Assembly (NCBI GenBank): GCA_001599295.1
Contig: BCGN01000001.1
Location: 806,001 to 870,000, forward strand
Direction: 5' to 3'
From: Sporopachydermia quercuum
Lineage: Eukaryota
Length of the DNA stretch: 64,000 nucleotides
Shown: positions 10,101-63,800 of the stretch, piece by piece
How the letters are laid out: every line of letters starts with the position of its first letter
Position numbering within the stretch: position 1 is the first letter of the stretch
Translations under genes and position numbers: made by a program
The notes under the pieces: model-generated
Told to the model about the DNA's origin: nothing
The model's input: the letters and a program-made list of their open reading frames with translations, nothing else
The model's database searches: none

Positions 10101-10257
10101 AGTTACTGTACTATTTAATCGACATTAGCTAGCTGGACTACTACAGTTTGAGATCAAACATCTTTTCTCATAATAATTACTGACAAAATCACATTTGATA
10201 CACCATATCAAGTTTTCCACATAAACGAACCCAACACAATAGAAGAATCCCTTGAAC

Positions 10258-11121
10258 ATGAGTTCACCTGAATCTGAACCATTCTCTCCAAAAGAAGATC
10301 TTTCTTCTACTCCTTCGTCAGCATTTACTAGTCCTAACTTGGACGAACCATTAACACTAGATAGCTCTCAATTAATTGGAAAGAAGAGTAAAAGATCCAG
10401 TGGGGATTTGATTCCACCCATGCCAATTGGATCTTTACCCCCAAGGAAAAGGGCAAAGACTGAAGAAGAGAAAGAACAACGCAGGATAGAGCGTATTATG
10501 AGAAATAGACAGGCTGCTCACGCTTCAAGGGAAAAGAAGAGAAAGCATGTTGAAGAACTAGAGACAAAATGCCATGAACTGGCAACTGAAAACAATCAGC
10601 TTCAATCTAAGATGTCAGTGTTGAAGTCTCAACAATCAAGCATCTTGGAGCAAAACCAAGAAATGTTAAATCAAATTAAGAAACTCACATCAATCATTAA
10701 ATCATTAAGTGAAAAATCCGGTCTTCCAGTTGATGATCTTCAACTGGAACTCCCAAGTACTAATAAGGCTACTGATGCTACATTGTCGGTACCTGACTTA
10801 CCTCTCAAACTTGAGAGCAAGAATACTGAAACCATATCACCACTTATTTCATCACCTCTTCTTGAAGAGGATTCCAACACATCCTCATGGAATCTACATA
10901 TGAACTCATCACTACCTGTTGAGACACTTCAATCCGTACCATCCACCACCACTTCACCTCTCGATGATTTCGTCCCGTTCGTGATGCATCCAGCAGAGAT
11001 GCACAAAGACCCGCAGCGTCAGAACAGGACGATCCTTTCTTCCATGACTTCATCCTCATGGACGACATCGACGCAACCCCTTGTTTCTAAACCCGTTCAA
11101 AGCCTGCTGATGGCCTGTTAA
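10258..11121 (+). CDS. HAC1: UPR bZIP transcription factor Hac1 (unspliced 287 aa to 11121; Ire1-spliced 270 aa ending at 11090)
   Basis: LPPRKRAKTEEEKEQRRIERIMRNRQAAHASREKKRKHVEELE is the Hac1/HacA bZIP signature; twin Ire1 hairpins at 10985-11020. Confidence 0.95.
   Translation: MSSPESEPFSPKEDLSSTPSSAFTSPNLDEPLTLDSSQLIGKKSKRSSGDLIPPMPIGSLPPRKRAKTEEEKEQRRIERIMRNRQAAHASREKKRKHVEELETKCHELATENNQLQSKMSVLKSQQSSILEQNQEMLNQIKKLTSIIKSLSEKSGLPVDDLQLELPSTNKATDATLSVPDLPLKLESKNTETISPLISSPLLEEDSNTSSWNLHMNSSLPVETLQSVPSTTTSPLDDFVPFVMHPAEMHKDPQRQNRTILSSMTSSSWTTSTQPLVSKPVQSLLMAC
10994..11013 (+). other. Non-spliceosomal (Ire1/Trl1) 20-nt intron of HAC1
   Basis: TGCATC[CAG|CAGA]GATGCA and GAC[CCG|CAGC]GTC are two stems with 7-nt CNG|CNGN loops; removal shifts the reading frame. 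Confidence 0.92.
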
Positions 11122-11939: not shown

Positions 11940-14900
11940 ATGGGCGCTCCTATGAAAGGTATGTTGTTGATTTTATGGATTGAAATGATGTTCAAAAATT
12001 TTTGGAATGCTTGGAATTCCGGCCAAATTATTGATGAATAGAGATAAGTAAAATTAGTGTGCTAACTGTCATGACAGGTTTAGTACAGTTTATCGCGGAT
12101 ATAAGGAATGCAAAAGTAAAAGAGGCGGCAGAGAAAAGAATACGATTGGAATTGACGAATATTCAAAAGCACTTTTCAGCAAAATCGATCTCAGGATATC
12201 AAAAAAAGAAATATGTCTGTAAATTGCTATACATCTACATTCTAGGGTATCCTATTGAGTTTGGTTATATTGAATCGATCTCATTACTTTCATCGAATGT
12301 TTACTCGGAGAAGCAGATAGGGTACCTTGCTATTTCTTTACTCTTGAATGAGAAAAATAACCTGATTCACTTGGTTATAAATTCTATATCTAAAGATTTA
12401 AACGCTGACAACGAAGAATTCAATGTTTTGGCTCTTCATTGTATAGCAACTATTGGCGGTTCAACAATGGGTGAAATATTCATGGAACCAGTGTACAATC
12501 TCCTAAAATCACCGGTTTCAAGCCCATTGATAAAAAAGAAAGCGGCATTAGCGTTATTATGTTTATTCAGAAACGATCCAAGCAGATTCCCTGCTGAATG
12601 GATTCATAGAGTTATATCATTTATTGATGATCCTGATTTAGGTATTGCAACATCAGCGGCCTCTTTAGTTATAGGATTGCTTGATCAATCAAACCTGATT
12701 GAACCTTTTGCTCCTTGCTACTCTTTGGCAGTGAAAAGCCTGTCAAGAATTGTTCTTGATAAACAATATCCTAAGGAATATGAATACTATTCTATACCAT
12801 GCCCATGGCTTCAAGTTAAGCTATTCCAAATTCTTCAATACTTGGACAGACCGAATGATGATAGCATTTACAATAGTTTGATTCAAATTGTTGTCAAATC
12901 ACTGAATACCAATGTTAGACCTACAGACAACGATCAGCAAGCACATGCCCAGAATTCGATCTTATTTGAAGTTATCAGTTTAGCTATCAAGCTAGACATA
13001 AACACCACAACTATGGATAAAATAGTCAATGCATTAGGGGGATTTTTAACATCAGCCCAAACTAATGGAAGATATTTAGCGTTAGATGCATTGTGCCATG
13101 TCACAACTCAATACGAGAAAAACGTGATTGGTATAAGGGAATTTTTGCCTTCTATAGTAGCATTATTGAAGGATAGAGATATTTCTATTAGAAGAAAATC
13201 GTTAGAGCTTCTATACTGTATCTGCGACTCTACCAATTTAGAGAAAATTGTCGGTGAGTTAATGAAATATCTGGAGTCTTCTGACTATTCCATTAGAGAA
13301 GATTTAGTTATAAAAATTGCTGTGTTAGCTGAAAAATACGCATCAGATTATCAATGGTATGTCCATACCATTTTGAAGCTCATCTCATTGGGTGGCAATC
13401 ATATAACGGACGATGTGTGGGAAAGAGTTATACAGATTGTAGTTAATAACGAATCTATTCAAGTGTACTTCTTGAAAATGATCCTTCAGTATTTAAAGGC
13501 TTCCAGCACTAAGCCTGTTCACGAGATTATTATTCGAATGGGAGCTTACGTATTAGGTGAATATGGACACTTGGTAGTTGACCTTAAAGGATCTGAACCA
13601 ATGGATCAGTACTTGATATTAGCAGAGCACTACCCATTCGTTTCTATTGCAACCAAAGTTATGATGTTGACAGCCTTCGTAAAATTCGCCAATCTGTACC
13701 CCGATATAAGAAACCAATTGGTCCTCTTCTTTGAAACTCAAACAGATAATTATGATTGCGAAATTCAACAAAGATCGTTTGAGTATCTGAACTTGATCAA
13801 ATTTGGAGAATCCTATCCAGAATTCATTGCTACTGTTTTGGAAGAAATGCCACCATTCCCAGCTAGAATCTCTCCTTTGTTAGCCAAACTTGAAACTTCA
13901 AGATTGCAAAGAGATAAAACAATAAGGAAGAAATCTGTTGTTGCCAAAGATCTTGACTTCAGCAATATAACCAGAAGAAATGCAAGCAGTGCAAGCTTGA
14001 ATACTCGGCGAAGGCGGTCATCTGAGTTTAATGGTAACAATGGTGGTGCCAACTCTTATGCTGGCGCATCAAACGCTCCACCAACTTCTTCCTCTTCTCC
14101 AACAAAAAAACTTGTACCCCAGTTCACAGGGTCTACTTCAACGTTTATGACAGAACAAGCTGGGGGCTCCTCTTCTAGAGCCAGTCCACCACCTGTTCCT
14201 GCAATACCTTTAACTGCCAATTGGGAGCAGGGTTACTATCGTTTAGCTCATTTCTTATCAGGAGTGTTTTTTGAAAACTCGTTAACAAAGATCCTTCTAA
14301 GAACTGAATACTCCGGTGACACAGGGTACATCACTATTGATTTTCTAAATAAAAGTCCTAGTGCTATGAACTCAGTATACTCTGAAATTACTGTTCCTTT
14401 TATCAAGTTAATTGAAAACTCGGAAGAAAGATTTATTCCTTTGCAAATAACAACTGAAAAATCATTAAGTGCTGAGGTACCTATCAAATCAAGGACAAGC
14501 CAAGTTGTAAAAGTTACTGTGAATAGACCTTATGATAATCCACCTAGGATTCGGTTCTCTTTCATGTCAGGTATTCTTAGTACGATTGATCTAAAGTTAC
14601 CGATTTTGCTGCACAAGTTTTTGAAGCCAACGCCATTAAATGCAGAAGAATTCTTCCGGAGATGGAAGCAAATTGGTGCTGAGAATGGTCGACAATTCCA
14701 GCAAGTATTCAGAAGTAAGAGTAAGCTGAATCATCAAACCAATGAAAGAATGATGACATTAATGAATTGGGGAGTTTGCAGTAATGTCGATAAATCTCCT
14801 AATGCCGTTGTCGGAGCAGCATTATTGAAAACAGCCAAAGGAGGAACTTTTGGATGTCTATTAAGGTTAGAACCAAATGATAGTTTTACGGTAAGTATTG

Positions 14901-15036
14901 TTTTATTTATGTATAAACGTCTCTATTCAACTACTAACATTTCTAGATGTATCGTGTTACTATTAGAACTACGGATGGCGAAGTTTCTAGGATTCTTGGA
15001 TCTTTTATTGTTGAGTTATATGAAATGGGTCCTTAA
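11940..15036 (+). CDS. APL3: AP-2 complex alpha-adaptin, 3 exons (11940-11958, 12078-14890, 14947-15036), 973 aa
   Basis: MGAPMKG|LVQFIADIRNAK...GYQKKKYVCKLLYIYILG. Intron 1 (11959-12077): GTATGT/TGCTAAC/CAG. Intron 2 (14891-14946): GTAAGT/TACTAAC/TAG, which restores the conserved ear ending MYRVTIRTTD. Confidence 0.93.
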
Positions 15037-15317
15037 ATATAGTTTGGTTTATAAACACATGTTATAGATGTTGAAAGTGTATGTAAGTAAATCATAGAAT
15101 GTGAAGCACAGAATTACAGGTGATTCAATGAATATGAAATAAATATTCAGAAGCCTATATAAATTAGGACTACGTTGATTCAGCCTTCCGGCACTGAAGA
15201 ACAAATTGTATACATTGATCTACTTTGTGCTCCTATGTTGATTACATTCATTATATACAGTTAGACCAACATCAGAAATGTTGCAAATCATCAGAAAGCA
15301 ACACACTATATCTACTT

Positions 15318-16181
15318 TCATTTCTTAGATCTAGCACCGAAAATATTACTACCGACTCGAACATTCGTACTTCCTTGTTTAATAGCTTGCTTAAAATCAG
15401 CGCTCATTCCCATACTCAATTCAATAGAGTCAACAACTAACCCCAAAGATTCAGCTAACTCATTCTTCAGTTGAACCAAATTCTTAAAGTCGATATTTTC
15501 TTCCCCGTCAGTATGTGAATGTTCAAACGATCCAATAGTCATTAAACCTTTAAATTCTAGTTTTGGACACGATTCCTTTATATATTTCACCAGGTCGAAC
15601 AAGTCATTCTTCTTTTCTCTATTAATAGCTTCATCTTTGGTGAAAGCACTGATACCGCTTTTTTGATCTTCACCACTAGTATTAACTTGGATGAAAACGT
15701 TTAACAAGGAATCTTCATCTTTCCTGTTGTCATTCAATTTCTTTGCCTTTTTAGTACTATCGAGAGTTTCCACTGCCCACAAATTTGGTATACTAGACAA
15801 ATCTTTACATTTGTTACTTTGTAGTGTGCCAATGAAATGCCAATTGATATCTTTTGGTAGTGCTTCAGATTTACCTACTAGTTCCTGGACATAATTCTCT
15901 CCAAAGTGACGATGGCCTTCAAGATACAAGGCTAAGATGTCTTCAGCTGGTTTGAACTTTGAAACTGCGACTAATCTCACTTTTTCTCTCTTGATAGAGT
16001 TATTTGCACAAGCTTCATTTACTTCATTCTCGATATTACCTAGATTTTGTACTAATTCTTGAACTCTTTCAATATCAGGAAGTGCAACAGTTGAGGCCAT
16101 TTTGAAGAAATAGGGCGGTGAATTCCGTAATAATGCAGATGTTTTCAATGGTGAGAATTGTCTTAGTTGTGCCAAACTCAT
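15318..16181 (-). CDS. Pyridoxal-phosphate homeostasis protein (YggS/PROSC/PLPBP; YBL036C homolog)
   Basis: RLVAVSKFKP, FGENYVQEL, WHFIGTLQSNK, GLMTIG, LSMGMSADF and VRVGSNIFG motifs; second in-frame ATG at 16100. Confidence 0.93.
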   Translation of the reverse strand: MSLAQLRQFSPLKTSALLRNSPPYFFKMASTVALPDIERVQELVQNLGNIENEVNEACANNSIKREKVRLVAVSKFKPAEDILALYLEGHRHFGENYVQELVGKSEALPKDINWHFIGTLQSNKCKDLSSIPNLWAVETLDSTKKAKKLNDNRKDEDSLLNVFIQVNTSGEDQKSGISAFTKDEAINREKKNDLFDLVKYIKESCPKLEFKGLMTIGSFEHSHTDGEENIDFKNLVQLKNELAESLGLVVDSIELSMGMSADFKQAIKQGSTNVRVGSNIFGARSKK

Positions 16182-44349: not shown

Positions 44350-46680
44350 ATGAGTGAATCCGAACCATCAAGTAACCAGCAGGAGAAGCCAGCATTGCAG
44401 CAATCCGAATTATCACCAGTCCAATGTTTACAGGAAGCCACGAAAGTTGATTTATACGTTCCTGATCGAAATCTTTTGACTTCAATCAGTAGTAAATTAT
44501 TCTCATCCTCATCCTCACCCTCGTCATCATCATCATCAGCATCAGCATCAACTAGCTACAATATATTCGATGCTATAAACATAGATCATTTAAAAGAAGC
44601 ATCCATTGCTAAAGATGTTATTTTCTTCAACGAAAACATAAGCGTCTACATTGTAATCCAGCTATCATTAAACTCTCTTAAAGATAACAATATCATTCCT
44701 GATAATGCCCTAGAAGTATTGGAATCAGACCATGAGGCTTTAGAGTCAGTCCTTCTCACAATTATCAGAGCAGCTGCCGTCAATACAGAACTAATTCTTT
44801 CTGGAACTTCAGTTGACTCCGATACTGCATCTTTGAATTCAGGTAAAAGCGGTAGTAGTAATCTCGAGAAGAGGAAATTTCATTCCTTTTTGATCCGAAG
44901 CGAAAAATGCACGTCATCAGATTTGGAATCCATACAGTTTTCACCAGAAAATGGTTCAATTGCTGTTACATATAAGAAAAACCTTGAGGTGGCATACCCA
45001 AAATTAAGACTGGCTTCAACTAAACTTGATGCTGTTGCTGCTTTGTCTTATCATAATGTTAGTATGAGAAAACTCTTTAGAACTTTAACAGTTAATAGTG
45101 GTAGCCTATTATTTGGTTCTTCTGAATCTTTACCAGATAGTAATGGCAATGAAAATATCAGAGACCCCATCAGTAACTCAGTTAAATCAGATGAATTATC
45201 AGAAAACGACACCGATAGCGATATTCTAATCGATGAATCATGTGATTTCCTAGTATCTAATTTACTCCAGAGCTTAGATAATAACGTTGAAGATAATTTT
45301 GACAATGATTCCGACAATGTCTGTTCTCCCTTGTCAGCATTCTCAGATTTGACTATTAATCATAAAAGCCCTTATATTCCATCGACAGTTGTTAATTTCC
45401 ACTCCCAATCAGATACTCTGCATATAAGGAAGAATTCTTCCCGAATCAATAATGAGAGCGCTACTGGTAACTCTACATCAACTACAACTCACTCACATTT
45501 AGATATGGAGGGCATTAGAAAAACCAGGAGTTTCCCTGTTGTTTCAATCTTGCTCATGAGGCTGAAAAACACTAAAGCTGCTGGTTTGGAAGAATCGTTA
45601 GTATCATTACTGGAACTAGAATCGTCAATCCTTTTAACCAGACCCAACACTTCAGTCAGAAATATTCTCGTTAGAAGTATTCATCTTGAGCTCCTAGGAG
45701 GCACAGTTAAATCTGGTGATTCCCATTTCAAACCTATAATTATAGGGCCTCGCGATATTCATTCCTTGTTGTATTTCCTTGCTGATGCTGAGTTCAGCTA
45801 TTCTACCAATAATAAGAATATAGGAAAATCAAGACCAGTAACAATCACTGTAGAAAGTGTCCCTCTACCATCAAAACTTGATTTCAACACATATTTTAAG
45901 GATTCCAACTTTATCGATAGTTCAGTTGACCCTCAATCAATTGTAAGGTCTAAATGGACTACACTTGTTGATTTCAGTATAAATGCTCCACCTATAAATT
46001 CGGTTACATCAGCTGCAAACAGTGCCAGTGGTATGGGATCTTCAGCATCAAATATTAATACTAATAACAGCATCAATAGTTCTCATTCAGGATCAAACGG
46101 ATCTCAAGTGTTACCGAAAAGACGAGAACCACGGCCAATGAAAGCTCTGAGGTCTTCATCATCTAGTTTAACAGTTAACATCCTAAGCAAGACACCATTG
46201 AGTCCTTTTGCTCCTCATTCGCCTTTACAATCATCATCTACATACCTGTCAGGTTTGACAGTATCGTTTTCTGGGCCTACATCTGTTAAAGCCGGCGAAA
46301 TTGTTGAGTGGGTTGTCCTAGCTATTAATAAAAGCACTGGTAGTAAAATGGTTGGAATTTACGTATCACCAAAGGAAACTTCTGCCATTTTCCGAGGCAA
46401 TGGAGGCTTGCTTCCCCCCAGTTTAGCAGGTCAACCGGCTATTGATAATACAACATTAACGAGAATCTATTTAGGATCTAGGATTAATAGATCTGAAGTT
46501 TTATTTCTCACTAATGATGTAAGAATGGGTCCGTTGGAGCCCCAGACATGTTTTGAGGCAAAGATACATTTTCTGCCTCTTCGTTCGGGGATTTTTTCAT
46601 TAGAGGGACTACAATTAGTTGAGTTAACGTCGGGCGAGAGTTTTGAATGTGGGAAATTATTAGAAATCGTTGTGAATTGA
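44350..46680 (+). CDS. TRS65: TRAPPII-specific subunit Trs65
   Basis: C-terminal GLTVSFSGPTSVKAGEIVEWVVLAINKS...LTNDVRMGPL..CFEAKIHFLPL.SGIFSLEGLQLVEL; near MRPS35, as YGR166W/YGR165W are in S. cerevisiae. Confidence 0.8.
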   Translation: MSESEPSSNQQEKPALQQSELSPVQCLQEATKVDLYVPDRNLLTSISSKLFSSSSSPSSSSSSASASTSYNIFDAINIDHLKEASIAKDVIFFNENISVYIVIQLSLNSLKDNNIIPDNALEVLESDHEALESVLLTIIRAAAVNTELILSGTSVDSDTASLNSGKSGSSNLEKRKFHSFLIRSEKCTSSDLESIQFSPENGSIAVTYKKNLEVAYPKLRLASTKLDAVAALSYHNVSMRKLFRTLTVNSGSLLFGSSESLPDSNGNENIRDPISNSVKSDELSENDTDSDILIDESCDFLVSNLLQSLDNNVEDNFDNDSDNVCSPLSAFSDLTINHKSPYIPSTVVNFHSQSDTLHIRKNSSRINNESATGNSTSTTTHSHLDMEGIRKTRSFPVVSILLMRLKNTKAAGLEESLVSLLELESSILLTRPNTSVRNILVRSIHLELLGGTVKSGDSHFKPIIIGPRDIHSLLYFLADAEFSYSTNNKNIGKSRPVTITVESVPLPSKLDFNTYFKDSNFIDSSVDPQSIVRSKWTTLVDFSINAPPINSVTSAANSASGMGSSASNINTNNSINSSHSGSNGSQVLPKRREPRPMKALRSSSSSLTVNILSKTPLSPFAPHSPLQSSSTYLSGLTVSFSGPTSVKAGEIVEWVVLAINKSTGSKMVGIYVSPKETSAIFRGNGGLLPPSLAGQPAIDNTTLTRIYLGSRINRSEVLFLTNDVRMGPLEPQTCFEAKIHFLPLRSGIFSLEGLQLVELTSGESFECGKLLEIVVN

Positions 46681-47254: not shown

Positions 47255-50200
47255 TCAACATAGCTTCATAAGAAACTCTCTTCGTTTATTACGAGCTTTT
47301 TTGTTATCCCTATAGCCAATAGGAAAACTAATCAACACATTTTCAAAAGCAGAAAGAACACTAGTGAACGAAACACCATTCTCACCACAGTGTCTTAGAA
47401 ATGAACATAAATATATGAGAACATTCGCATTAACACTTGGCATACTCTCAAGAACTGCACTCTCATTACCATTCATAACCAATCCATAACATTCCCTAGG
47501 TACTGTTCCTCCATCTAAAGAGTACAGCAATTCGAATAGAACTCTTAATACAGCCTTGGTTCCAAAATACTTGGGAACAGTTACATCAGGGTGTTTATTT
47601 TCATTCAAAGCATCTAATGGCAAATCGGTTAGCTCAGCGTTACTATCAAGAGCTTCTCGGATTTGGCGATCAATATCCCAAGTGAATATTATCATTGATG
47701 ATAATACAACTTCTTTCCATGATGCTCCTTGTAATGGAGCTCCTGTTGATATATACTGAAGGATTTTCTCCTTATCAGAACCAGTTAAAACGGGAGACGA
47801 TAATGCAGATTCCATGAATAAACCAGGAGTTATTCTTGTCCATATATAGTCAACACATTTCCATATTTCTTTAGGAACTCCAATATTGCCTCTGGATAAG
47901 TCTGAGGATGTATCATCAGCATTCCATTGCTTAACTGATGATTGACCTAACATTGCTAGCTGATGTAATGACATTCCAAAGCAACTAGGTTTTCGATTAA
48001 TCACATAGGATAAAAAGATATCTTGGCCGTTTTCAAGCCTTACAATGAAAACTGATGACAGATCAGTATTTGAATCTGGTGATGATGCGCACTTCGTTGT
48101 TGATAGTTCTAAATCAGCTACTAGGAATAAAGTGATTTCCTCCTGCGCATCTAATAAATATCCAGCTTTTGGATCCAATGGTTCTGGGGTAATGAATACC
48201 TGATTTGTAACATTACTGCTAGTAGGAATGAGCTGGAATCGAACGGAGCTTGCACCAGTATTGGTGAACGTGATTTTATCCATGGCAGGAACACCTGGTG
48301 TAGCATTAACGGTGACTTCCATTGGATCAATAGTTAAACTGGGTCTGTTCGCATTTTCCATCCTGTCAGCTTTTTTCATAATCGATACTAGCTTTTCATG
48401 TTTAGCTGTTGGAGCTACTGCAATAGTGTCTAATGTTGCATTGAAAACCACAGGATCATGATCGGAATTATTCCATACATTAGGTATACTTTGATAGCTG
48501 TTAGAGATGATTTGGGCGTTCAGTTTATTTGTGAGAACACGATACAATACTCTATCGGTATAAGAGCCGGTTCTTTTGTCATCAAGGACTCGTGATGATG
48601 TAGCTGCAGTATTGGTAGCTGTATTAGTAGTATTAGTAGAACTAGTAGGAGTGGTAGAGGTATTAGTAGCAGGATTAATCACTTTGTACTTATACGTAGG
48701 AGGGAAATCGATAGCTGGTTCATTGAAATGAGGGAAAACGATTCCAGCATGTTGTTGTGCTTTCAATGTATCGAACTTCATTAGTTGAGAATATTTTCCA
48801 TTAGCTACCAACTGCTGAACTTTTTCACTAAGTAAGTTTGTTCTATAATTTAGATCTCCAGCAACAATAGTAATAACAGCTGGCGAGTTAGCACTAGGAG
48901 TTGAAATTAATTGATCGTTAGAAGATTCAGTAAAAGTAGAATTAGAAGTAGACACGTGAGCATTTTGATCTGGTTCTCCAGGGGATACTTTATTGAAGTT
49001 TATTTCTTCTTTGGAATATTTTGTAGATTCATTCTCATTGTTTGTTTTGTCGTTCGCATTCTTAGGTTCAGGTTCAGTTTCACTTTCATCGTCAGAATCA
49101 GCAATTTTAAACTCATCAGTTCGCTGTATAGAGTCTTTCTGTTCCTTGGGTTCCTCTGAATCATTTGGCTTCTTTGGTTCCTTCAATTGCTTTATTTGCT
49201 TGTCCTTTTTCAATGACTTCTTTCCAACGGCTTTTCGAATCCTCTTATCTTCATTTTCATTTTCATGTTCAGCTTTAACTTCGGCTTCCCCAGCCCTTTC
49301 ATCTTTGTTATTCTTGCTTTCCTCTATTCCAAGGTTACTAACATCGTCTGTCACTGATTCATAATCAGTAGTATCAAACAGCACTGAGCTCTCGTCACTA
49401 TGAATACCATTGCTAGTACCATCATAATCCTTATCTTCCAGATAACTTGAATCTCCAGTATCATTTTTACTATCCTGTATTTCTTGCTCTGACATTTTAT
49501 ATTTCTCCGAGATCAAATCCACGCAGCCTAATTTAAGCATTATATCATTGAGCTCTTTTTGCCTCCGTTGTAAGACTTCTTCACCCTCTCCTGCAGCTAA
49601 ATGCATATTCAGCAGCTGTACGGTTACACCTGAAGCTTCTGGGGCATTCAAATCAGCATCCACATCCAAATCATCCTTCCCAAAGGTAAACCGTATTGAA
49701 ACAGCACCTTTGTTTCCCCAGACGCCCAGAAATCCTGTGCCAACTGTTTCTTTTTTAATATCAGAAAATAACGGCTTCAGATGATTACTAGCAACGACAA
49801 TACTGTACAATCCTAATAGACCGTTAGTAGCAATAATAGAGTACTGGGCATTTTCTCTACCGTCTTTCACATCAGAATCAGCGAAAATACTGCCATTGAG
49901 CTGCTCAAGAATACCTTTTTTCCAAGCTGCATTTACCTGCTGATTGGCATAAATATTAGCAGCATTCAACGGGATGATTTCTTGGAAGTTTATCAAATAG
50001 ATATCATATTTGTCTTGTCTAGGTAACAAAGCATTCAAATCCGGGACGATAGGATTACCAGCTAAATTCCACGATACAATTTTCACTGTTATTTTTTGCC
50101 TAGTGCAGTAACTTAACTGGTGAGCTAGCAGTTCTGCTGATATGTTAGCATATAATTCCTGAGACTCAGCAACAGGATCAGCAAGCTTGGAGACTATTTG

Positions 50201-51554: not shown

Positions 51555-52758
51555 ATGTTAGCCCGATTAAACGGACCAAATAGCAATGCTAGCATGCTCT
51601 CAAAACAATGCATCAGAGGTGTAGCTACAAGAGCTATCCCATTTATTCGGGGAGCTCCAGCTAAACCACCGAGGTCTGTTCGTGGTAATAGAACCACTTT
51701 ACAATACTATCTCAGCAGGTTCTTAGGGCCAAAGAACTACAAAGGTGAATACTATCTAAACAAATACTACTATCCCCCGCAAAACCATAAGCCTAACTAC
51801 TTGAATCCCGTTCGAGATTCTCACGATCCTTTACTCACCGAGTACAACATCAGTAAACAACAAGGAAAGTTCAAGAAGAGGTTCCCTACTAATCAACCTT
51901 TTCCTAATAATCCAAGCACGAAAACAAATGTGGTTGTTAGTGATCAAATGAAAAAGGAGATTCACGACAGAATAGTTAATAAGAAAGAGTCTGTTCCATC
52001 CGTGGCAAAGTTCTATCGTATGAAAATGCCTAGAATTGAAGGAATTGTGAAGTTGGTAGAAATAGAGAATGAATGGAAAGAAAATGTAAGTACTGCCTTG
52101 AATGACACTCTTTTTGGTTTTACAGATTACAAGAAACATTACTGGATGTTATAAAGATGAGACTAAATAAAAATAAACTTATGTTCGATTAGTCTTTAAG
52201 ACAACTACATGGTTTGAAATATTTATTTCTGATTTATTCGGCATGTTTTACCTGTTTTTCTGGAGAACGAAAAAGAACAAAACTTATGAATCAGCAACTA
52301 ACAGTTTATTCTAGGGAAAAATAACTCCTCAGCTTGAGATTTTCGCTGATACAATGAAGAAAATGTTTCCAATACACACACCATATTACACAGCTGAGAA
52401 TTTAACCGAAATTCCTACTCAGAAGGAAACCGAAAACACTGTTTTGTTGACCATTGCTGAATCAGAGCCTTTTGGACCTTCTGAAGCAGCTAAAGTGTAT
52501 GAGGTTGAAGAAGCAGCAACCACTCTTAAGCGTCTTACTGAAACGGGTACTCATTTAGATACCAAATCGGACGTCAAACAAGAAATTTACTATGGCCCTG
52601 TTCTTGAAGGTGAACGATCTGTTTTTAGATTTACCAAGGCTAAAGTTGGTAAAGTTGGTTTCAGATATGGTGCTTCTAGAGATGACACGAAGAAGAACAG
52701 AGGTGTGTATTTTGATAAATTCGGTAATTTGAAATATAGTGATCCTGTTAGTACTTAG
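51555..52758 (+). CDS. MRPS35: Mitochondrial small-subunit ribosomal protein mS45, 2 exons (51555-52085, 52315-52758), 324 aa
   Basis: FLGPKNYKGEY, PFPNNP.TKTN, RIEGIVKLVEIE, ESEPFGP and KVGFRYG. Intron 52086-52314 (GTAAGT/AACTAAC/TAG) joins the two ORFs in frame. Confidence 0.88.
52151..52237 (+). ncRNA. Probable intronic box C/D snoRNA in the MRPS35 intron
   Basis: Box C-like AAGATGA (52154-52160), box D CTGA (52229-52232), ATAAA/TTTAT terminal stem, and a 15-nt element GTTCGATTAGTCTTT complementary to conserved LSU rRNA AAAGACUAAUCGAAC. Confidence 0.78.
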
Positions 52759-58379: not shown

Positions 58380-60806
58380 CTTGGAAAACAATCCTCAGAG
58401 TTTTCAGTTGCAGCTTTGCAATTCAACAATTCAGAAAGGATCTTCTGATATTTTCTGTAGTTCCTTAACCGGTGTTTCTTTTATTCAATCAACCAAGCAA
58501 TCAGAGAATCTACTAGATGACCAATTGAGCGTTTAATAACAACAATGAAGTAACAACAGTAACAAATATTATAACAATACTAATTCAATCCATCAGTAGT
58601 TACCATTCGATTACAATACCCTGATTCTTCCAATTCAGTTGTTACTATATTTTTGTTATTTAATTCTAATTATATATACAATACAGATCTTGAAAATCAT
58701 CAATTGTTTGTCTTATTACTTGCTCGTGAGGTTAGTTATCTAACGGCAGGTTTGCTTTACTTCTCGGGGCAAAATTGGACAGCCTGTAAAAAAGGAGACT
58801 AATGATGAGGTAATCTGAAAATAGTAAGTTTATCGGAGAATTGCGGTGTAGACAGGTTGGAGGGAGTGCGAGAGACTGCAGAAATACTGCTGATGAGGTA
58901 AGGGGTATAATGGGACATGAAAGTTGCAAGATGGAGAGTGGGATAATCAATTGTTGGAGGACAGGGAAGGCTATTTAAGTAGATTAATATAGAATCAAGG
59001 GAGAGTATTATTGATAGTATGGTTGGTAGTAGCATTTGCTTGACAATGTGAGGTTTTGGAAAGAATAGCTAGGTTATTCAGATGCAATGTGAAGTATGAA
59101 GATGCTGATTCACATTGCAGATAATGGTGGGCATGAATCAATAATGGTTGATTGTTGGATTGTTCTTGAATAGCGTAGCGTTTTCTGTTGGTGTAGTAGA
59201 ATTAATAATCCTATCTTGGAGAGCAAAAATATTGAACATTATTTAAAGTTTCAATATAACAATCATGATGAAGACGAAGATTAATACGGTTGGTAGGCTC
59301 AACCATCATTTTAAACTCATTTATTCCAATAAAGTATAGTGGAAGCTAGGTTGGAATGGAGGGCCTAGCTAATGATGAGATGAGAAACTTGTTTTACCTT
59401 CTTGCTATTATGTGAAACGATTTTTTGAATGTCTCCCTATGCTTAAAAAGAAATTTGGATCCTTTCCTTACTCTCCTTATCGAACCCTACTCAAGAGATC
59501 ATCTTTTGATCCTATTTTTCAGGAAAGCAGGCTGACAACAACACTGAACGATTTCTCGTAGTAACTCTTTGAATCATTAAATGAGTCCACCAGCAGTAGT
59601 GAAAATATATCCTCTTCTATAAAGTTCCGATAAATGTTATCTTAGACAAGGAACTATCGATTCACCAACATATCTCCCAATTGAGCCAACATTTGGACAC
59701 ACATCTATGATTTCACTTATTGTGTTTCTAGCAAAGTTTCTCAATTGATTCTATACATAGAACGTACATTTTTTCGCTAGAAAAAGTCATAAACGACTGA
59801 TTGTTCAAATACGTGATAATCGTTGTATTTATCATCACGAGGGACTAAGCATCCCTTTCATCCACAATCTACTGTCAGTTATCGTCAGGGTCGAATTAGA
59901 GTCACATCCTTCTGTGTTCTAAAATATGCATTATTCCTGCAAAAAGTGGGGTAAATTTGCGATAGGTGCATCTGCATGCATTCCGTATAGGCAGAAATAT
60001 ATTTCATACCATACAACAAAAATGGTATAAACAATAAACAATTAACAGAAGCGTTGTTACCTTACTAAGAATAGTTGAGAAATGAGCAGGTATTTTTCAG
60101 GGTTGAATAGGAAATACTATTTGTTGTTTCAAGAATGAATAATGTTTCAAATAATCGCCCTTCCTCTCAAACCTTTTACTGACTGATTAACTGTATGCAA
60201 TTGGCATCTTAATGTAGGTAGTTCAATGGGACAATGGAGATTTGCTGACAAACAAGAGAACAATATTGTCTCACACTGTACGGTCAAAAAGCTAGAGAAA
60301 GAATAAGACGTTGTGAAATCAATCAATAAATTACATATTAGTTTCCGGAAAGAAACAGTTAAATAAGTCTAGATCTGACAAGACACTTCTAAGTTACTTT
60401 CATTCAGGAGTGAGTAACGTTTTCAGCAAATAGAATAATTGGCTTTACTCATTCTTAGCTAATGTATTACTTGCCGGGACTATGGCGGTAAGATATTTAA
60501 AGTTTGAAGATGGCTTTTTGACATTCCTTTAAAGCCAAAACGCTAATAAAGTTGAATCAACTGTACTACCAATTTGGGAATTGAGCATCAACTTTAAGCA
60601 TTAAAAGAAAGTCGATTATTCAATGGGAATAGCTACCAATACAGAATGGCAACGAATTTTCTTCATTAAATATAACATCATCGACCAGTCGATTATAGAA
60701 AGCAGTAATTTTATCTTTATCTAGAAAACTTATAATGCATTTGGTTTGCAAGATGAGTTCGCTAAAGTGACTCAAGATTCTGGTTTACAAAAACCACGAA
60801 TCGCTG

Positions 60807-60894
60807 AATCTGCAGCAAATATTAGAGTAGGGAATTAAGAATCAAGCCACTTTGGTTAATTCATAATTCCCTACTCTAATATTTGCTGCAGATT
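60807..60894. repeat. Perfect 31-bp inverted repeat forming an approximately 88-nt hairpin
   Basis: AATCTGCAGCAAATATTAGAGTAGGGAATTA (60807-60837) is the exact reverse complement of 60864-60894; the 26-nt spacer is also partly paired. Confidence 0.95.
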
Positions 60895-63800
60895 TTGAAA
60901 ACATAGAACCGTAAAATAACAATAGAAACTTCCCGTCAAATCAACCTCAGCTGGGAGAGAAAGATTCTTTTGAATCGTATGATATATTTCAGGGAATGCC
61001 AATATTTGTCATCAGAAGCTTCATGTGGTTTCATTGTTTCACAGAAGACAAAGGTCTTCAAATTCGTTCAAGCGGCCTTGTAGCTTCAAATGATGAAATG
61101 CTAGACTTGCGGAAAAGCCAGCAGAAGCATTACTAGTTTTCATAGTTAAGTAGAAGTTAACATACTTGAGTTAAGCTTCTACTATTCATCTTAAGTACTT
61201 ATATATATCATTGGTAGAAACAGTATATCACTGCTTCATACAAGACAGATATAGATAACTTGACTTTTATGCACGATGATATATCCTGGAGGTAAAATAA
61301 TGCTATGGAGTATTCAGATTATAGGACAGAACAATTAAACAGCAATTCCAATATCTTTACCACAATCTTTTAATGAAGAAAACTATTTAGCTTAATTATT
61401 TATAAATCATCGAAAATCATAAGAATTGTTATAGAAAATTGGACATTTATGCTTATTAATTCTGAAAGCCAAATGTTGCTACCCATTCACAAGACAGAAT
61501 AATTGGAAATGAATTCCGATAACTACAACGCCATTCTTCTTTTATCTGAAGTATTAATAACTCAATAACATACAAGAAAATCACTGTTCTTACAAGATTA
61601 TTGCAAATAATTTGGCTTTCATGCATGATAAATAATGCTGGAAGCATAAGATTGCTACCAAGCATACAATTTATATATCAAAGCAATCCAAGATTATCTC
61701 TAGAAATTGCAGGACTTTACTCACTATCCTTGTACTATAACAATAGAAAATTTTACTTTTTGAATTGTTAAATGTCATTGCTATTGAGTAATACAGAAAA
61801 TATTGAGAAGAAGTTCAAATTTCTTTCCATACAACGTTGCTCAAAGCGCATCATCTTCTTTAATTAAAATTTAGAGAAACCTCTTTTCATTGAGCAAGCC
61901 ACGAAAATATCATTAGTTGGTCTGAAATTATTTTGATCTCTTGTGGTCAAGGTATCATTTTATTTCGAACAATTCAGCATTGCGAATATACACAAGATCT
62001 TTCAATACTACCTCGCATGATAAAAATGACACTGTCCAGTTGGATTTCATCTATTCAACGACATAGCTTCAGGGGGTTCATAAATGACACTTTTTGAACT
62101 TTTTTACTTACCGGTAATTATTTTCGATCGCTCTAACTATTTTTTTTCCATATTTTCTAACGAGAGTATTGAATTCTCCTTTACAATTTGTTTATGGGTA
62201 ATAGAATCAGATCAAATAGGTATTTACTAGAATTCATTTGTGAGGAGTAGCCAATTGCCTTGTCAAATGGATTGTTACAGTGGTCTACTAATTGGTTTAA
62301 ATGATTGAAGTAGCTAAGGGGACATACTTATTGAGCCTATTGAACGCTCAGATCTAGTGAACAAATAGTGTAATAATTACTTCAAAGATCATCATACTTT
62401 TAGGATAGAATTAATGTTAACTATCCTTTGTAAAGGAGGTCGGATTTTCATTATTGTTCATGGCACCAAAAATCCCATAATCAAAATACCGGCTGAAAAA
62501 ACTCTGGAACTAAACTATTGAACATGGGGATGTTCACTACCGGATGCTCATCTATTTCTCATCTAAAAAACAAAAGTAAAAGACGTAAACAAAGCACTGC
62601 TTTCTATTTATTTCAAAAATGTTTATATTTGTTTTTCCAAGAACATTTGACAACCTATGAAAATTTCTCCTCCCTGGACTGAATTGTTTCCGCCAAATCA
62701 CATGAAATGAGAATAAAGTTTTCATTTTTCAACCTAACTTACATATATAAAAACGCTCTCTTGGTTAAGTTTTTATGAATAGCAAGTAACCCAAGTATAA
62801 GAAATATACAATGATACTGTTTTTTTCTTTTTTTCCTTCAAGCTCCTTCAATGTGCTATCTTTAACCTGAAGATAGGAACCAATCCATTTTCAACTTCTA
62901 TTTCTGCTTTTTCAAACTTGGTTAATGAACTAATTTCAAGAAGTAGGGAAAACTTACTTACAGTTCAACTAAAAATCAAACTAAATCAGACTAAAATTTG
63001 TCTTGACAGTCAAAGAATTAAACTTTCAAGACCGTTTTGATTATTTTACGATTTCTCACTACCAAATAGCTTTAAATTAGGTTCAACTGCATAAGACCTT
63101 AACTTTAATGATATTTGAAAAGCCTTCGGCTTGGTTCAGCATTTCAATAAGTAATTATGGTACGTAGCAATAAATCAAACAAGAACTAATTATTTTTTAT
63201 TTGATTTGCTTGACTAATCAATTATGTAATTACTGAAAAATTTTGTTGAGTGCCTTGAAATCGACGGTCGTTGAGAGCCAGTGAGGTTAAATAAACAATA
63301 AAGTTTCCCTGTCACATTTTCACACTTTCAATGATGATAATATTTACATCAGTTCATAGTAAAAAAAAAGAATAGAAAAGTAAGCTAAAGTTATGTTAAT
63401 CTAACAACATTATAATATTAGAAGTTGCAAGTTAATCTACAGATTACGAACTAGTCATGAGGGGTTTCGTTGTTGATCACACTGAGCTGCTGATTATTAT
63501 ATCAACCTGTTACAATGAACTTTATGAAATACAGATATTTGAGTCATCGTTGTTTCTCCACAAACTATTCATTTCAATTAAAAGGGTGAAAAATCCGTTT
63601 TTAATTCAATTATTTACTCTCAAGTTCCGATCAAAGCACTCCCAGTCTCTCTAGAGATCCGGAATTTTAGCGTACTTTTGATAGAACCCTCAGAAATTGC
63701 ACTTAGCTAAATCAGTATAAATAATTGGATTTTCCGGTGTCTTCAAGATTTCCGAAGTTCCTACAGTCAGACTTCCTTTTTGCTCCAAGGAGAAAGAGCA

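What the first reader, a model, noticed from the sequence alone, without database searches (positions are those of the whole stretch)
52151..52237. Intronic C/D snoRNA with a two-part LSU rRNA guide hosted by a mitoribosomal protein gene
Seen: the 229-nt MRPS35 intron is the longest reconstructed here and contains box C-like and box D motifs with a terminal stem. Element 52183-52197 is a 15/15 complement of LSU rRNA AAAGACUAAUCGAAC. A second element ACTACATGGTT (52204-52214) is a 10/11 complement of the overlapping downstream segment AACCAUCUAGU. The D' box appears degenerate (TTTA) and sits in a GTCTT-T-AAGAC mini-palindrome. The rRNA sequence is recalled from conserved eukaryotic LSU, just 3' of the yeast Gm908 site. 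Inference: the D'+5 rule points to the first A after GACU, a site I do not recall as methylated in S. cerevisiae. The RNA may instead act as a chaperone-type snoRNA, and it would link cytosolic ribosome biogenesis to a mitoribosome transcript. Homologs may already be catalogued in other ascomycetes.
Basis: partly seen in the sequence, partly recalled or inferred. Interest (0 to 1): 0.72.

Follow-up and report, generated by a model that had tools for sequence, protein, structure and literature searches.

The report
Intronic CD39-type methylation guide snoRNA
The long intron of a budding yeast's mitoribosomal protein gene very probably carries a small nucleolar RNA of an already described fungal family that guides methylation of one adenosine in large-subunit rRNA, so it is real but ordinary.

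Summary
The features are in the sequence as described. The MRPS35/Bot1-family gene has a 229-nt intron (52086-52314). Inside it lie a box C-like AAGATGA, a 15-nt element (52183-52197) and a box D CTGA. The 15-mer is exactly complementary to real eukaryotic LSU rDNA: 40 of 46 LSU-like loci that cover the site hold the complement.

With D' = AAGA (52198-52201), directly after the guide, the fifth-nucleotide rule selects 25S A917 in S. cerevisiae numbering, not A920. That is the site given for Neurospora Nc CD39 (26S-Am897, D' guide, intronic, cDNA-cloned). Its fission-yeast homologue snR83 is reported to guide the mapped 25S Am949. A "CD39" snoRNA is reported in Candida species but not in S. cerevisiae.

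The second element (52204-52214) lies where published "extra base-pairing" elements lie, between D' and C'.

Weak points: box C has A where fungal snoRNAs have U in at least 99.7% of cases, Rfam has no match, and neither expression nor conservation could be tested. No RNA runs, no whole genome and no relatives' DNA were available.

Verdict: a probable new member of a known family (about 0.8). A chaperone role need not be invoked.

The parts
51555..52085 (+). Exon 1 of the MRPS35 (mS45, Bot1p family) gene
   Evidence: ORF from the ATG. Pfam PF12298 matches profile positions 2-65, E 8.6e-21. Relatives are named MRPS35 / 37S ribosomal protein S35 by their sources. Aligned.
52086..52314 (+). Spliceosomal intron, 229 nt: GTAAGT at the 5' splice site, AACTAAC branch site at 52296-52302, TAG at the 3' splice site
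   Evidence: Frame and Pfam profile run on across the junction. The two other canonical-signal intron candidates not discounted in the window are 56 and 98 nt; only the 56-nt one was checked against its ORF.
52149..52237 (+). Predicted mature box C/D snoRNA, about 89 nt. The ends are inferred as 5 nt outside boxes C and D.
   Evidence: The 5-nt trimming rule is quoted in Canzler 2018. The ends were not observed; no RNA data were available.
52133..52148 (+). 5' arm of an intronic stem outside the snoRNA (52133-52139 and 52142-52148)
   Evidence: In the MFE fold of the intron it pairs with 52235-52249. Flank duplex -11.8 kcal/mol, reached by 173 of 2000 shuffles, so suggestive only.
52154..52160 (+). 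Box C-like motif AAGATGA. The GAUGA core is intact. Position 2 is A instead of U.
   Evidence: This deviates from the fungal consensus, where that position is at least 99.7% conserved.
52183..52197 (+). D' guide (antisense element), 15/15 Watson-Crick to LSU rRNA 913-927 in S. cerevisiae-type numbering. T52193 pairs with A917.
52198..52201 (+). Proposed box D' AAGA (degenerate, keeps GA). Part of the GTCTT-T-AAGAC palindrome 52192-52202.
   Evidence: It abuts the duplex. With it, the fifth-nucleotide rule gives A917, the equivalent of Nc CD39's Am897. D' positions vary by 15-45% in fungi.
52204..52216 (+). Accessory ('extra base-pairing') element. It pairs with rRNA about 923-935, with one C:C mismatch opposite C931.
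   Evidence: Duplex -14.1 kcal/mol against rRNA 923-960, reached by 38 of 3000 shuffles. Its place between D' and C', and its overlap with the guide's target, fit van Nues 2011.
52214..52220 (+). Candidate box C' TTGAAAT. An alternative is TGGTTTGA at 52210-52217, read with a 2-nt insertion. Uncertain.
   Evidence: Only the UG(A) of the consensus is kept. Divergent and split C' boxes are documented in yeasts.
52229..52232 (+). Box D CTGA
   Evidence: No rRNA complement of 9 nt or more upstream of it was found in the LSU fragments held, so this is a single-guide RNA as far as tested.
52235..52249 (+). 3' arm of the external stem
52315..52758 (+). Exon 2 of MRPS35, including the stop codon
   Evidence: Pfam PF12298 matches profile positions 66-156, E 2.2e-17. 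Alignment.

Best explanation
The intron of this yeast's MRPS35 gene encodes a single-guide box C/D snoRNA. It most likely belongs to the fungal family known as Nc CD39 (Neurospora), snR83 (fission yeast) and CD39 (Candida).

Proposed mechanism (inferred):
- The RNA is co-transcribed with the host pre-mRNA.
- It is released from the spliced, debranched intron by exonucleolytic trimming to boxes C and D. A stem formed by flanking intron sequence may help.
- It assembles with the C/D core proteins.
- Its 15-nt element pairs with 25S rRNA 913-927, so that the nucleotide opposite the fifth position upstream of box D' (AAGA), A917, is 2'-O-methylated.
- A second element in the D'-C' loop can pair with the next rRNA segment (about 923-935) as accessory 'extra base-pairing'.

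Shown here: the sequence anatomy, the exact rRNA complementarity, and the coincidence of the predicted target with a published fungal site.
Inferred: expression, processing, protein binding, the methylation itself, and orthology to CD39.
For: - Intron and host gene are established.
- Boxes and elements are at the stated places.
- The 15-mer is exactly complementary to eukaryotic LSU rDNA in 40 of 46 LSU-like loci that cover the site. It occurs once in the window.
- Numbering was checked on locus L034, which gives the expected base at 10 of 10 S. cerevisiae Nm positions. With D' = AAGA the target is A917.
- Liu 2009, Table 1 (passages): Nc CD39 is 73 nt, cDNA-cloned and intronic, with a D' guide 13/0 to 26S-Am897. 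Its S. pombe homologue is snR83, and none is listed for S. cerevisiae, Arabidopsis or human.
- In the same table snR39b, snR72 and snR60 sites sit at S. cerevisiae number minus 20, so Am897 corresponds to A917.
- Diao 2014 (passages): S. pombe 25S Am949 is a mapped methylation assigned to snR83 and is absent from human, plants and budding yeast.
- Donovan 2016 (passages): CD39 is present in all Candida species examined and not in S. cerevisiae. Canzler 2018: one C. albicans snoRNA shares its target-binding region with Nc_CD_39.
- The accessory element's place and overlap fit van Nues 2011, and its pairing energy is reached by 38 of 3000 shuffles.
- The intron is 2-4 times longer than the two other canonical-signal intron candidates not discounted in the window, only one of which was checked against its ORF.
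- The RNA lies 63 nt from the 5' splice site and 77 nt from the 3' splice site.
Against: - Box C reads AAGAUGA. Among 5593 fungal C/D sequences the positions after the first are at least 99.7% conserved, so A at position 2 is very unusual.
- The only terminal pairing in register is five A-U pairs that would absorb the K-turn bulge.
- Folding is not better than shuffles: z = -0.40 for the RNA (64 of 200) and z = -1.21 for the intron (24 of 200). The flank duplex is reached by 173 of 2000 shuffles.
- D' and C' are degenerate and were assigned without homologues.
- Rfam gives nothing at gathering score, and only E > 1 matches to unrelated families in 52050-52350.
- A 15-mer antisense to LSU is not rare at window scale; a second one lies at 60493-60507 with no boxes.
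- The accessory element's p of about 0.013 is one of four comparisons made.
- Sequence homology to Nc CD39, snR83 or Candida CD39 was not tested, because their sequences could not be reached.
Confidence: 0.8

Rival explanations
1. It is a decaying or redundant copy: a former CD39-type snoRNA whose box C has been damaged (U to A). It no longer accumulates, and a functional copy, or none, exists elsewhere in the genome.
For: Box C deviates at a position that is at least 99.7% conserved in fungi. There is no properly registered terminal stem, and folding is not significant. Fungal snoRNA families are often lost or moved.
Against: The 15-nt guide is perfect and abuts a GA-containing D'. The GAUGA core and CUGA are intact. 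A neutral remnant would be expected to have lost guide matches as well.
Confidence: 0.1
2. It is a non-methylating, chaperone-type C/D snoRNA. The long bipartite pairing of about 23 nt would hold this part of 25S domain II open during assembly without modifying it.
For: The complementarity is unusually long: 15 bp plus about 12 more with one mismatch. D' is degenerate. In the tables and texts seen, no Nm is listed at this site for S. cerevisiae, Arabidopsis or human.
Against: With D' = AAGA the geometry is that of a normal methylation guide. The selected nucleotide equals a site assigned to homologous-target snoRNAs in Neurospora and S. pombe, and mapped as methylated in S. pombe. Extra base-pairing is described as stimulating methylation (abstract).
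Confidence: 0.05
3. It is a chance resemblance: an AT-rich intron that happens to hold a 15-mer antisense to rRNA between a GATGA and a CTGA.
For: Two such 15-mers occur in the window against only about 2.2 kb of LSU. About 6.4% of window positions lie in GATGA...CTGA intervals. A 20-mer from the element also matched a bacterial gene by chance in a metagenome. No fold signal was found.
Against: Chance must also account for four things: the sense-strand intron location, the D'-like box directly after the duplex, the agreement of the fifth-nucleotide target with a published fungal site, and the second element aimed at the adjoining rRNA segment (38 of 3000 shuffles).
Confidence: 0.05

Closest known systems
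Neurospora crassa Nc CD39 (Liu et al. 2009, PMC2780460; snoStrip family CD_39)
   Same: A box C/D snoRNA that is intron-encoded. Its D' guide is aimed at the same 25S/26S adenosine: Nc Am897 corresponds to A917 in S. cerevisiae numbering. Size is similar (73 nt against about 79 nt box to box here).
   Different: Nc CD39 also has a predicted D guide (26S-Am375), and none was found here. The duplex is 13 bp there and 15 bp here. Its host gene and sequence could not be seen, so homology beyond the target is untested.
Schizosaccharomyces pombe snR83 (C/D), guide for 25S Am949 (Diao et al. 2014, PMC4138321)
   Same: Listed as the S. pombe homologue of Nc CD39's D' target. Its site is an experimentally mapped methylation that is absent from budding yeast, plants and human.
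   Different: The equivalence of Sp A949 with A917 rests on Liu's homologue column. It was not checked on an alignment here. Sequence and host were not seen.
Candida CD39 (Mitrovich et al. 2010; Donovan et al. 2016, PMC5033589)
   Same: A Saccharomycotina member of the same family. It is present in all Candida species examined and absent from S. cerevisiae. Most Candida C/D snoRNAs are intronic.
   Different: Its genomic location is in a supplementary table that could not be opened, so whether it also sits in MRPS35 is unknown. Mitrovich 2010 is not held.
Extra base-pairing C/D snoRNAs (van Nues et al. 2011, PMC3116282), e.g. snR70, snR75
   Same: The accessory complementarity lies between D' and C' and is aimed at rRNA directly flanking the methylation duplex. 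It is 4-11 bp long and overlaps the guide's target by a few nucleotides.
   Different: There the elements were defined by conservation across yeasts. Here only one sequence is available, and the element has an internal mismatch.
snR60 (S. cerevisiae), guide for A817 and G908
   Same: It targets the neighbouring site G908, 9 nt 5' of A917.
   Different: Different guide sequence and target. Rfam's snoRNA models give no match here.

Membership tests
Box C/D snoRNA (class) | Box C RUGAUGA near the 5' end | tested here: inconclusive
   AAGATGA at 52154-52160 matches 6 of 7 and keeps the GAUGA core. Position 2 is A, where fungi have U in at least 99.7% of cases.
Box C/D snoRNA (class) | Box D CUGA near the 3' end, 60-130 nt from box C | tested here: met
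   CTGA at 52229-52232. The span from box C to box D is 79 nt.
Box C/D snoRNA (class) | Antisense element of 10 bp or more ending at box D or D', with the target opposite the fifth nucleotide upstream | tested here: met
   15/15 bp to LSU 913-927, ending directly at AAGA. T52193 pairs with A917. D' is degenerate (2 of 4, GA kept).
Box C/D snoRNA (class) | Terminal or external stem that brings boxes C and D together | tested here: inconclusive
   Flanking helices 52133-52148 / 52235-52249 appear in the MFE fold. Duplex energy is reached by 173 of 2000 shuffles, and fold z-scores are -0.40 and -1.21.
Box C/D snoRNA (class) | Stable small RNA bound by Snu13, Nop56, Nop58 and Nop1 | not testable with these tools
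   No run on record as RNA holds the stretch. Only DNA contigs could be laid.
CD39 / Nc CD39 / S. pombe snR83 family | D' guide directed at the 25S adenosine equivalent to Nc A897 (S. cerevisiae-numbering A917) | tested here: met
   The offset of +20 comes from the snR39b, snR72 and snR60 sites in Liu's Table 1. A917 is the predicted target in the numbering checked.
CD39 / Nc CD39 / S. pombe snR83 family | Sequence similarity to family members outside the guide | not testable with these tools
   Member sequences are in GenBank and in supplementary files.
CD39 / Nc CD39 / S. pombe snR83 family | Phyletic pattern: present in Ascomycota including non-Saccharomycetaceae budding yeasts, absent from S. 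cerevisiae | tested here: met
   The window's organism is a budding yeast with no close named relative. Best named clathrin hits are 57-59% identical and include Trichomonascus, Pachysolen, Komagataella and Priceomyces. Best MRPS35 hits are 37-47% identical.
Any Rfam snoRNA family | Covariance-model score at or above the gathering threshold | tested here: not met
   There are 0 matches in the whole window at gathering score. The best hit in 52050-52350 is 16 bits, E 1.7, to an unrelated Drosophila family.
Extra base-pairing architecture (van Nues 2011) | Conserved element between D' and C' (or in the unused guide) complementary to rRNA flanking the target | tested here: inconclusive
   Place and complementarity fit. 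Conservation, which defined the published cases, could not be tested.

The most novel reading that the evidence does not exclude
In this deep-branching budding yeast the CD39-type guide has moved into, or been kept in, the coding-region intron of a mitoribosomal protein gene. It works with a non-canonical box C (A at the position of the flipped-out U). It would rely on an unusually long bipartite pairing (15 bp plus about 12 bp over 25S 913-935) and on an intronic external stem to compensate. It would then be both a methylation guide and a folding clamp for this part of domain II. Its supply would be tied to mitoribosome gene transcription.
Probability: 0.12. Interest if true: 0.45.

Novelty: new member of a known kind. 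Interest (0 to 1): 0.25.

Why it matters
If confirmed, this adds one unannotated snoRNA gene to a poorly studied yeast lineage. It also predicts a 25S methylation (A917-equivalent) that S. cerevisiae lacks. That supports the view that the CD39/snR83 guide is ancestral in Ascomycota and was lost in Saccharomycetaceae. It explains why this intron is long and probably why it is retained. It would give a natural example of a box C with A at position 2, should the RNA prove stable. The host being a mitoribosomal protein gene is a curiosity. It is not evidence of cross-talk between the two ribosome systems.

Tried and rejected
- **Whole genome of the window:** none is held. This species' own rDNA, a second CD39 copy and other snoRNAs could therefore not be looked for.
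- **Expression:** no RNA holder is listed among sequencing runs. Laying four runs gave only DNA contigs. One is the probable source. One is a 199-nt exon-1 piece with 5 differences from another sample. Nothing covered the intron in other organisms.
- **Homologues by DNA:** a metagenome scan with the 20-mer (guide plus AAGAC) gave one hit. It is a chance match at the end of a bacterial GTPase-like ORF.
- **Homologues by host gene:** an MRPS35 alignment scanned against prokaryote assemblies, for contaminant yeast contigs, gave 39 pattern matches and 0 confirmed relatives.
- **Earlier findings of this scan:** nothing by place, sequence or words bears on this.
- **Literature:**
  - 'MRPS35 + snoRNA + intron' gave 5 irrelevant papers.
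  - The 12-mer as text found only 28S primers.
  - 'CD39 + snoRNA + Candida + intron' found only Donovan 2016.
  - Mitrovich 2010 is not held.
These include Canzler S-tables, Donovan S1, Diao S2 and Liu's additional files. They probably list CD39 sequences and host genes.
- **My first mapping of the target** to the G805/A807/A817 region, from memory, was wrong. I dropped it after counting on L034.
- **D' = TTGA (52214-52217) with the second element as the guide:** rejected. It leaves no room for C', and it puts a mismatch next to the target.
- **Origin as a captured antisense rDNA fragment:** considered by inspection only, with no alignment run. The two elements are in swapped order relative to rDNA. 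A perfect 15-mer flanked by unrelated sequence does not look like neutral decay.
- **A D-box guide:** no rRNA complement of 9 nt or more upstream of box D in the LSU fragments held.

Full report
**What is in the sequence**

The gene is on the + strand. An ORF runs from the ATG at 51555 and is interrupted at 52086 by GTAAGT. An AACTAAC branch site lies at 52296-52302, and TAG ends the intron at 52314, which makes it 229 nt.

Pfam's Bot1p family (PF12298) matches exon 1 to profile positions 2-65 and exon 2 to positions 66-156. An alignment with 19 fungal proteins runs straight across the junction. Their sources name them MRPS35 / 37S ribosomal protein S35.

A scan for canonical yeast intron signals gave seven hits at six loci in the window. 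Of these, 48832-49368 lies inside a minus-strand ORF and 15079-15448 (two start variants) overlaps another gene. 45581-46245 (665 nt) was not examined. The other two are much shorter, at 56 and 98 nt. The 56-nt one was checked against its ORF.

**The candidate RNA**

The parts lie as follows:
- Box C-like AAGATGA at 52154-52160.
- A 22-nt A/T-rich spacer.
- GTTCGATTAGTCTTT at 52183-52197.
- AAGA at 52198-52201.
- ACTACATGGTT at 52204-52214.
- TTGAAAT at 52214-52220.
- Eight more bases.
- Box D CTGA at 52229-52232.

With ends inferred 5 nt outside the boxes, the RNA would sit 63 nt from the 5' splice site, 77 nt from the 3' splice site, and 64 nt from the branch adenosine.

**Complementarity to rRNA, tested on real sequence**

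No genome is held for this window. I therefore scanned prokaryote assemblies with the published LR5 primer, which was recalled. This returned 54 loci, most of them short contaminant contigs.
- Five are not rDNA-like upstream of the primer site.
- Three are cut before the region.
- Forty-six are LSU-like across it. The exact complement of the 15-mer is present in 40 of these, 21 nt upstream of the LR5 site.
- The six variants differ by one to five bases within the 15-nt target.
- Four loci checked with Rfam are all LSU_rRNA_eukarya.

Locus L034 holds the 5' end of the LSU. Counting from it, with LR0R at 26, puts the complement at 913-927. The same numbering gives the expected base at 10 of 10 S. 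cerevisiae 2'-O-methylation positions. That list was recalled, but 817, 876 and 908 also appear and A807.

My own first guess from memory, the 805-817 region, was wrong.

The second element differs from the adjoining rRNA segment at one base, opposite C931. That base is C in all LSU-like loci printed that keep this segment.

**Is it more than chance?**

Not on the 15-mer alone.
- Against four LSU fragments that cover only the first ~2250 nt, the window holds two antisense 15-mers. The other is at 60493-60507, AT-rich, intergenic and without boxes.
- About 6.4% of window positions lie between a GATGA and a CTGA spaced 45-130 nt apart.
- The RNA does not fold better than shuffles (z = -0.40). 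Neither does the intron (z = -1.21).
- The intron's MFE fold does put two 7-bp helices just outside the boxes (52133-52139 and 52142-52148 with 52235-52249). That flank duplex is reached by 173 of 2000 shuffles.

The case rests on the combination of four things. The element is on the sense strand of an intron. It lies between the boxes. A D'-like box follows the duplex directly. The target that results is a known one.

**Box D' and the target**

AAGA follows the last base pair directly and keeps the GA of the CUGA consensus. In fungi each D' position varies by 15-45%, and highly divergent D' and C' boxes are documented in yeasts. With AAGA as D', the fifth nucleotide upstream is T52193, which pairs with A917.

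**This target is published**

- **Neurospora.** Table 1 of Liu et al. 2009 (passages read) lists Nc CD39. It is 73 nt, recovered from a cDNA library and intronic, with a D' guide 13/0 to 26S-Am897. 'snR83' is given as its S. pombe homologue, and none is listed for S. cerevisiae, Arabidopsis or human.
- **The numbering offset.** In the same table the homologues of snR39b (Gm785), snR72 (Am856) and snR60 (Am797, Gm888) sit 20 below their S. cerevisiae numbers. Am897 therefore corresponds to A917. That is 9 nt after G908 and is an A in L034.
- **S. pombe.** Diao et al. 2014 (passages) report 25S Am949, guided by the newly found snR83. It is one of three mapped methylation sites not found in human, plants or budding yeast.
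- **Candida.** Donovan et al. [quoted passage not shown] Canzler et al. 2018 (sections read) say that one of Mitrovich's four 'novel' C. albicans snoRNAs shares its target-binding region with Nc_CD_39.
- **Arabidopsis.** The Nm table seen lists nothing between G917 (equivalent to yeast G908) and A945.

A C/D family with a D' guide to exactly this adenosine thus exists across Ascomycota, including budding yeasts outside Saccharomycetaceae. The window's element has the right guide in the right register.

**The second element**

Van Nues et al. 2011 (sections read) describe conserved elements in 13 yeast snoRNAs, plus 11 less conserved cases. These elements:
- lie mainly between D' and C';
- are 4-11 bp long;
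- are complementary to rRNA directly beside the methylation duplex;
- sometimes overlap the duplex by a few nucleotides.

According to the abstract, this extra pairing stimulates methylation up to five-fold.

The window's element sits between AAGA and the candidate C'. It can pair with about 923-935, as 8 bp, one C:C mismatch, then 4 bp. It overlaps the guide's target by 3-5 nt. Its duplex energy of -14.1 kcal/mol is reached by 38 of 3000 shuffles. That was one of four region-by-flank comparisons, so the support is modest. The 'two-part guide' is a known layout.

**Weak points**

- Box C has A at position 2. In 5593 fungal C/D sequences all positions after the first are at least 99.7% conserved, although that set was itself annotated with the consensus in mind.
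- The five A-U pairs next to the boxes would absorb the K-turn bulge.
- C' is a guess.
- Rfam has no match at gathering score in the window. It gives only E > 1 hits to unrelated families near the element.
- Expression could not be examined: no RNA run is listed and only DNA contigs could be laid.
- Conservation could not be examined:
  - No MRPS35 relative was found in prokaryote assemblies.
  - Mitrovich 2010 is not held.
- The organism has no close named relative among the hits. Clathrin's N-terminal 500 residues are at best 57-60% identical, and MRPS35 exon 1 is 37-47% identical.

**Verdict**

- The predicted site is A917, not A920.
- That site belongs to a catalogued fungal guide family, so a chaperone role need not be invoked.

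I put about 0.8 on a functional CD39-type methylation guide. The remainder is split as 0.1 on a decayed or redundant copy, 0.05 on a non-methylating chaperone, and 0.05 on chance. It is a new member of a known kind. The host gene may or may not be new for the family.

Noticed in passing
window 10243-11121 (+), with 10969-11033: A stop-to-stop ORF holds a bZIP basic region typical of HAC1. Near its 3' end Rfam's 'bZIP non-canonical Hac1/Xbp1 intron' model scores 37.8 bits (gathering 41, E 0.0012). This is probably the HAC1 orthologue with its Ire1-spliced intron.
   Followed up: partly
window 60798-60904, both strands: A long hairpin or inverted repeat matches several plant and animal miRNA-precursor models below their thresholds (best 48 bits). 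It lies in a stretch (59500-61500) without ORFs of 70 aa or more. Its nature is unknown.
   Followed up: no
window 60493-60507 (+): A second 15-mer exactly antisense to eukaryotic LSU rRNA fragments. It is AT-rich and intergenic, with no recognisable C/D boxes nearby. Probably chance, and useful as a calibration of how often such matches occur.
   Followed up: partly
window 14891-14946 (+): A 56-nt canonical intron (GTAAGT ... TACTAAC ... TAG) lies near the 3' end of a long ORF starting at 12038 (family not tested). It shows that ordinary introns in this yeast are short.
   Followed up: partly
L002-L055 (genome contigs): Most of the 54 prokaryote-assembly contigs that carry the LR5 primer site are short pieces of eukaryotic LSU rDNA. 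That is contamination in deposited bacterial and archaeal assemblies, isolates as well as MAGs.
   Followed up: partly
window 51577-51775, run X4: A 199-nt contig from another sample (organism B) covers part of exon 1 with 5 differences. A close relative or strain therefore exists in public data, but its intron was not covered.
   Followed up: no
L001 2001-2020: The 20-mer made of the guide plus AAGAC occurs by chance at the 3' end of a bacterial GTPase-like ORF in a metagenome contig. Even 20-mers hit by chance in collections of that size.
   Followed up: yes
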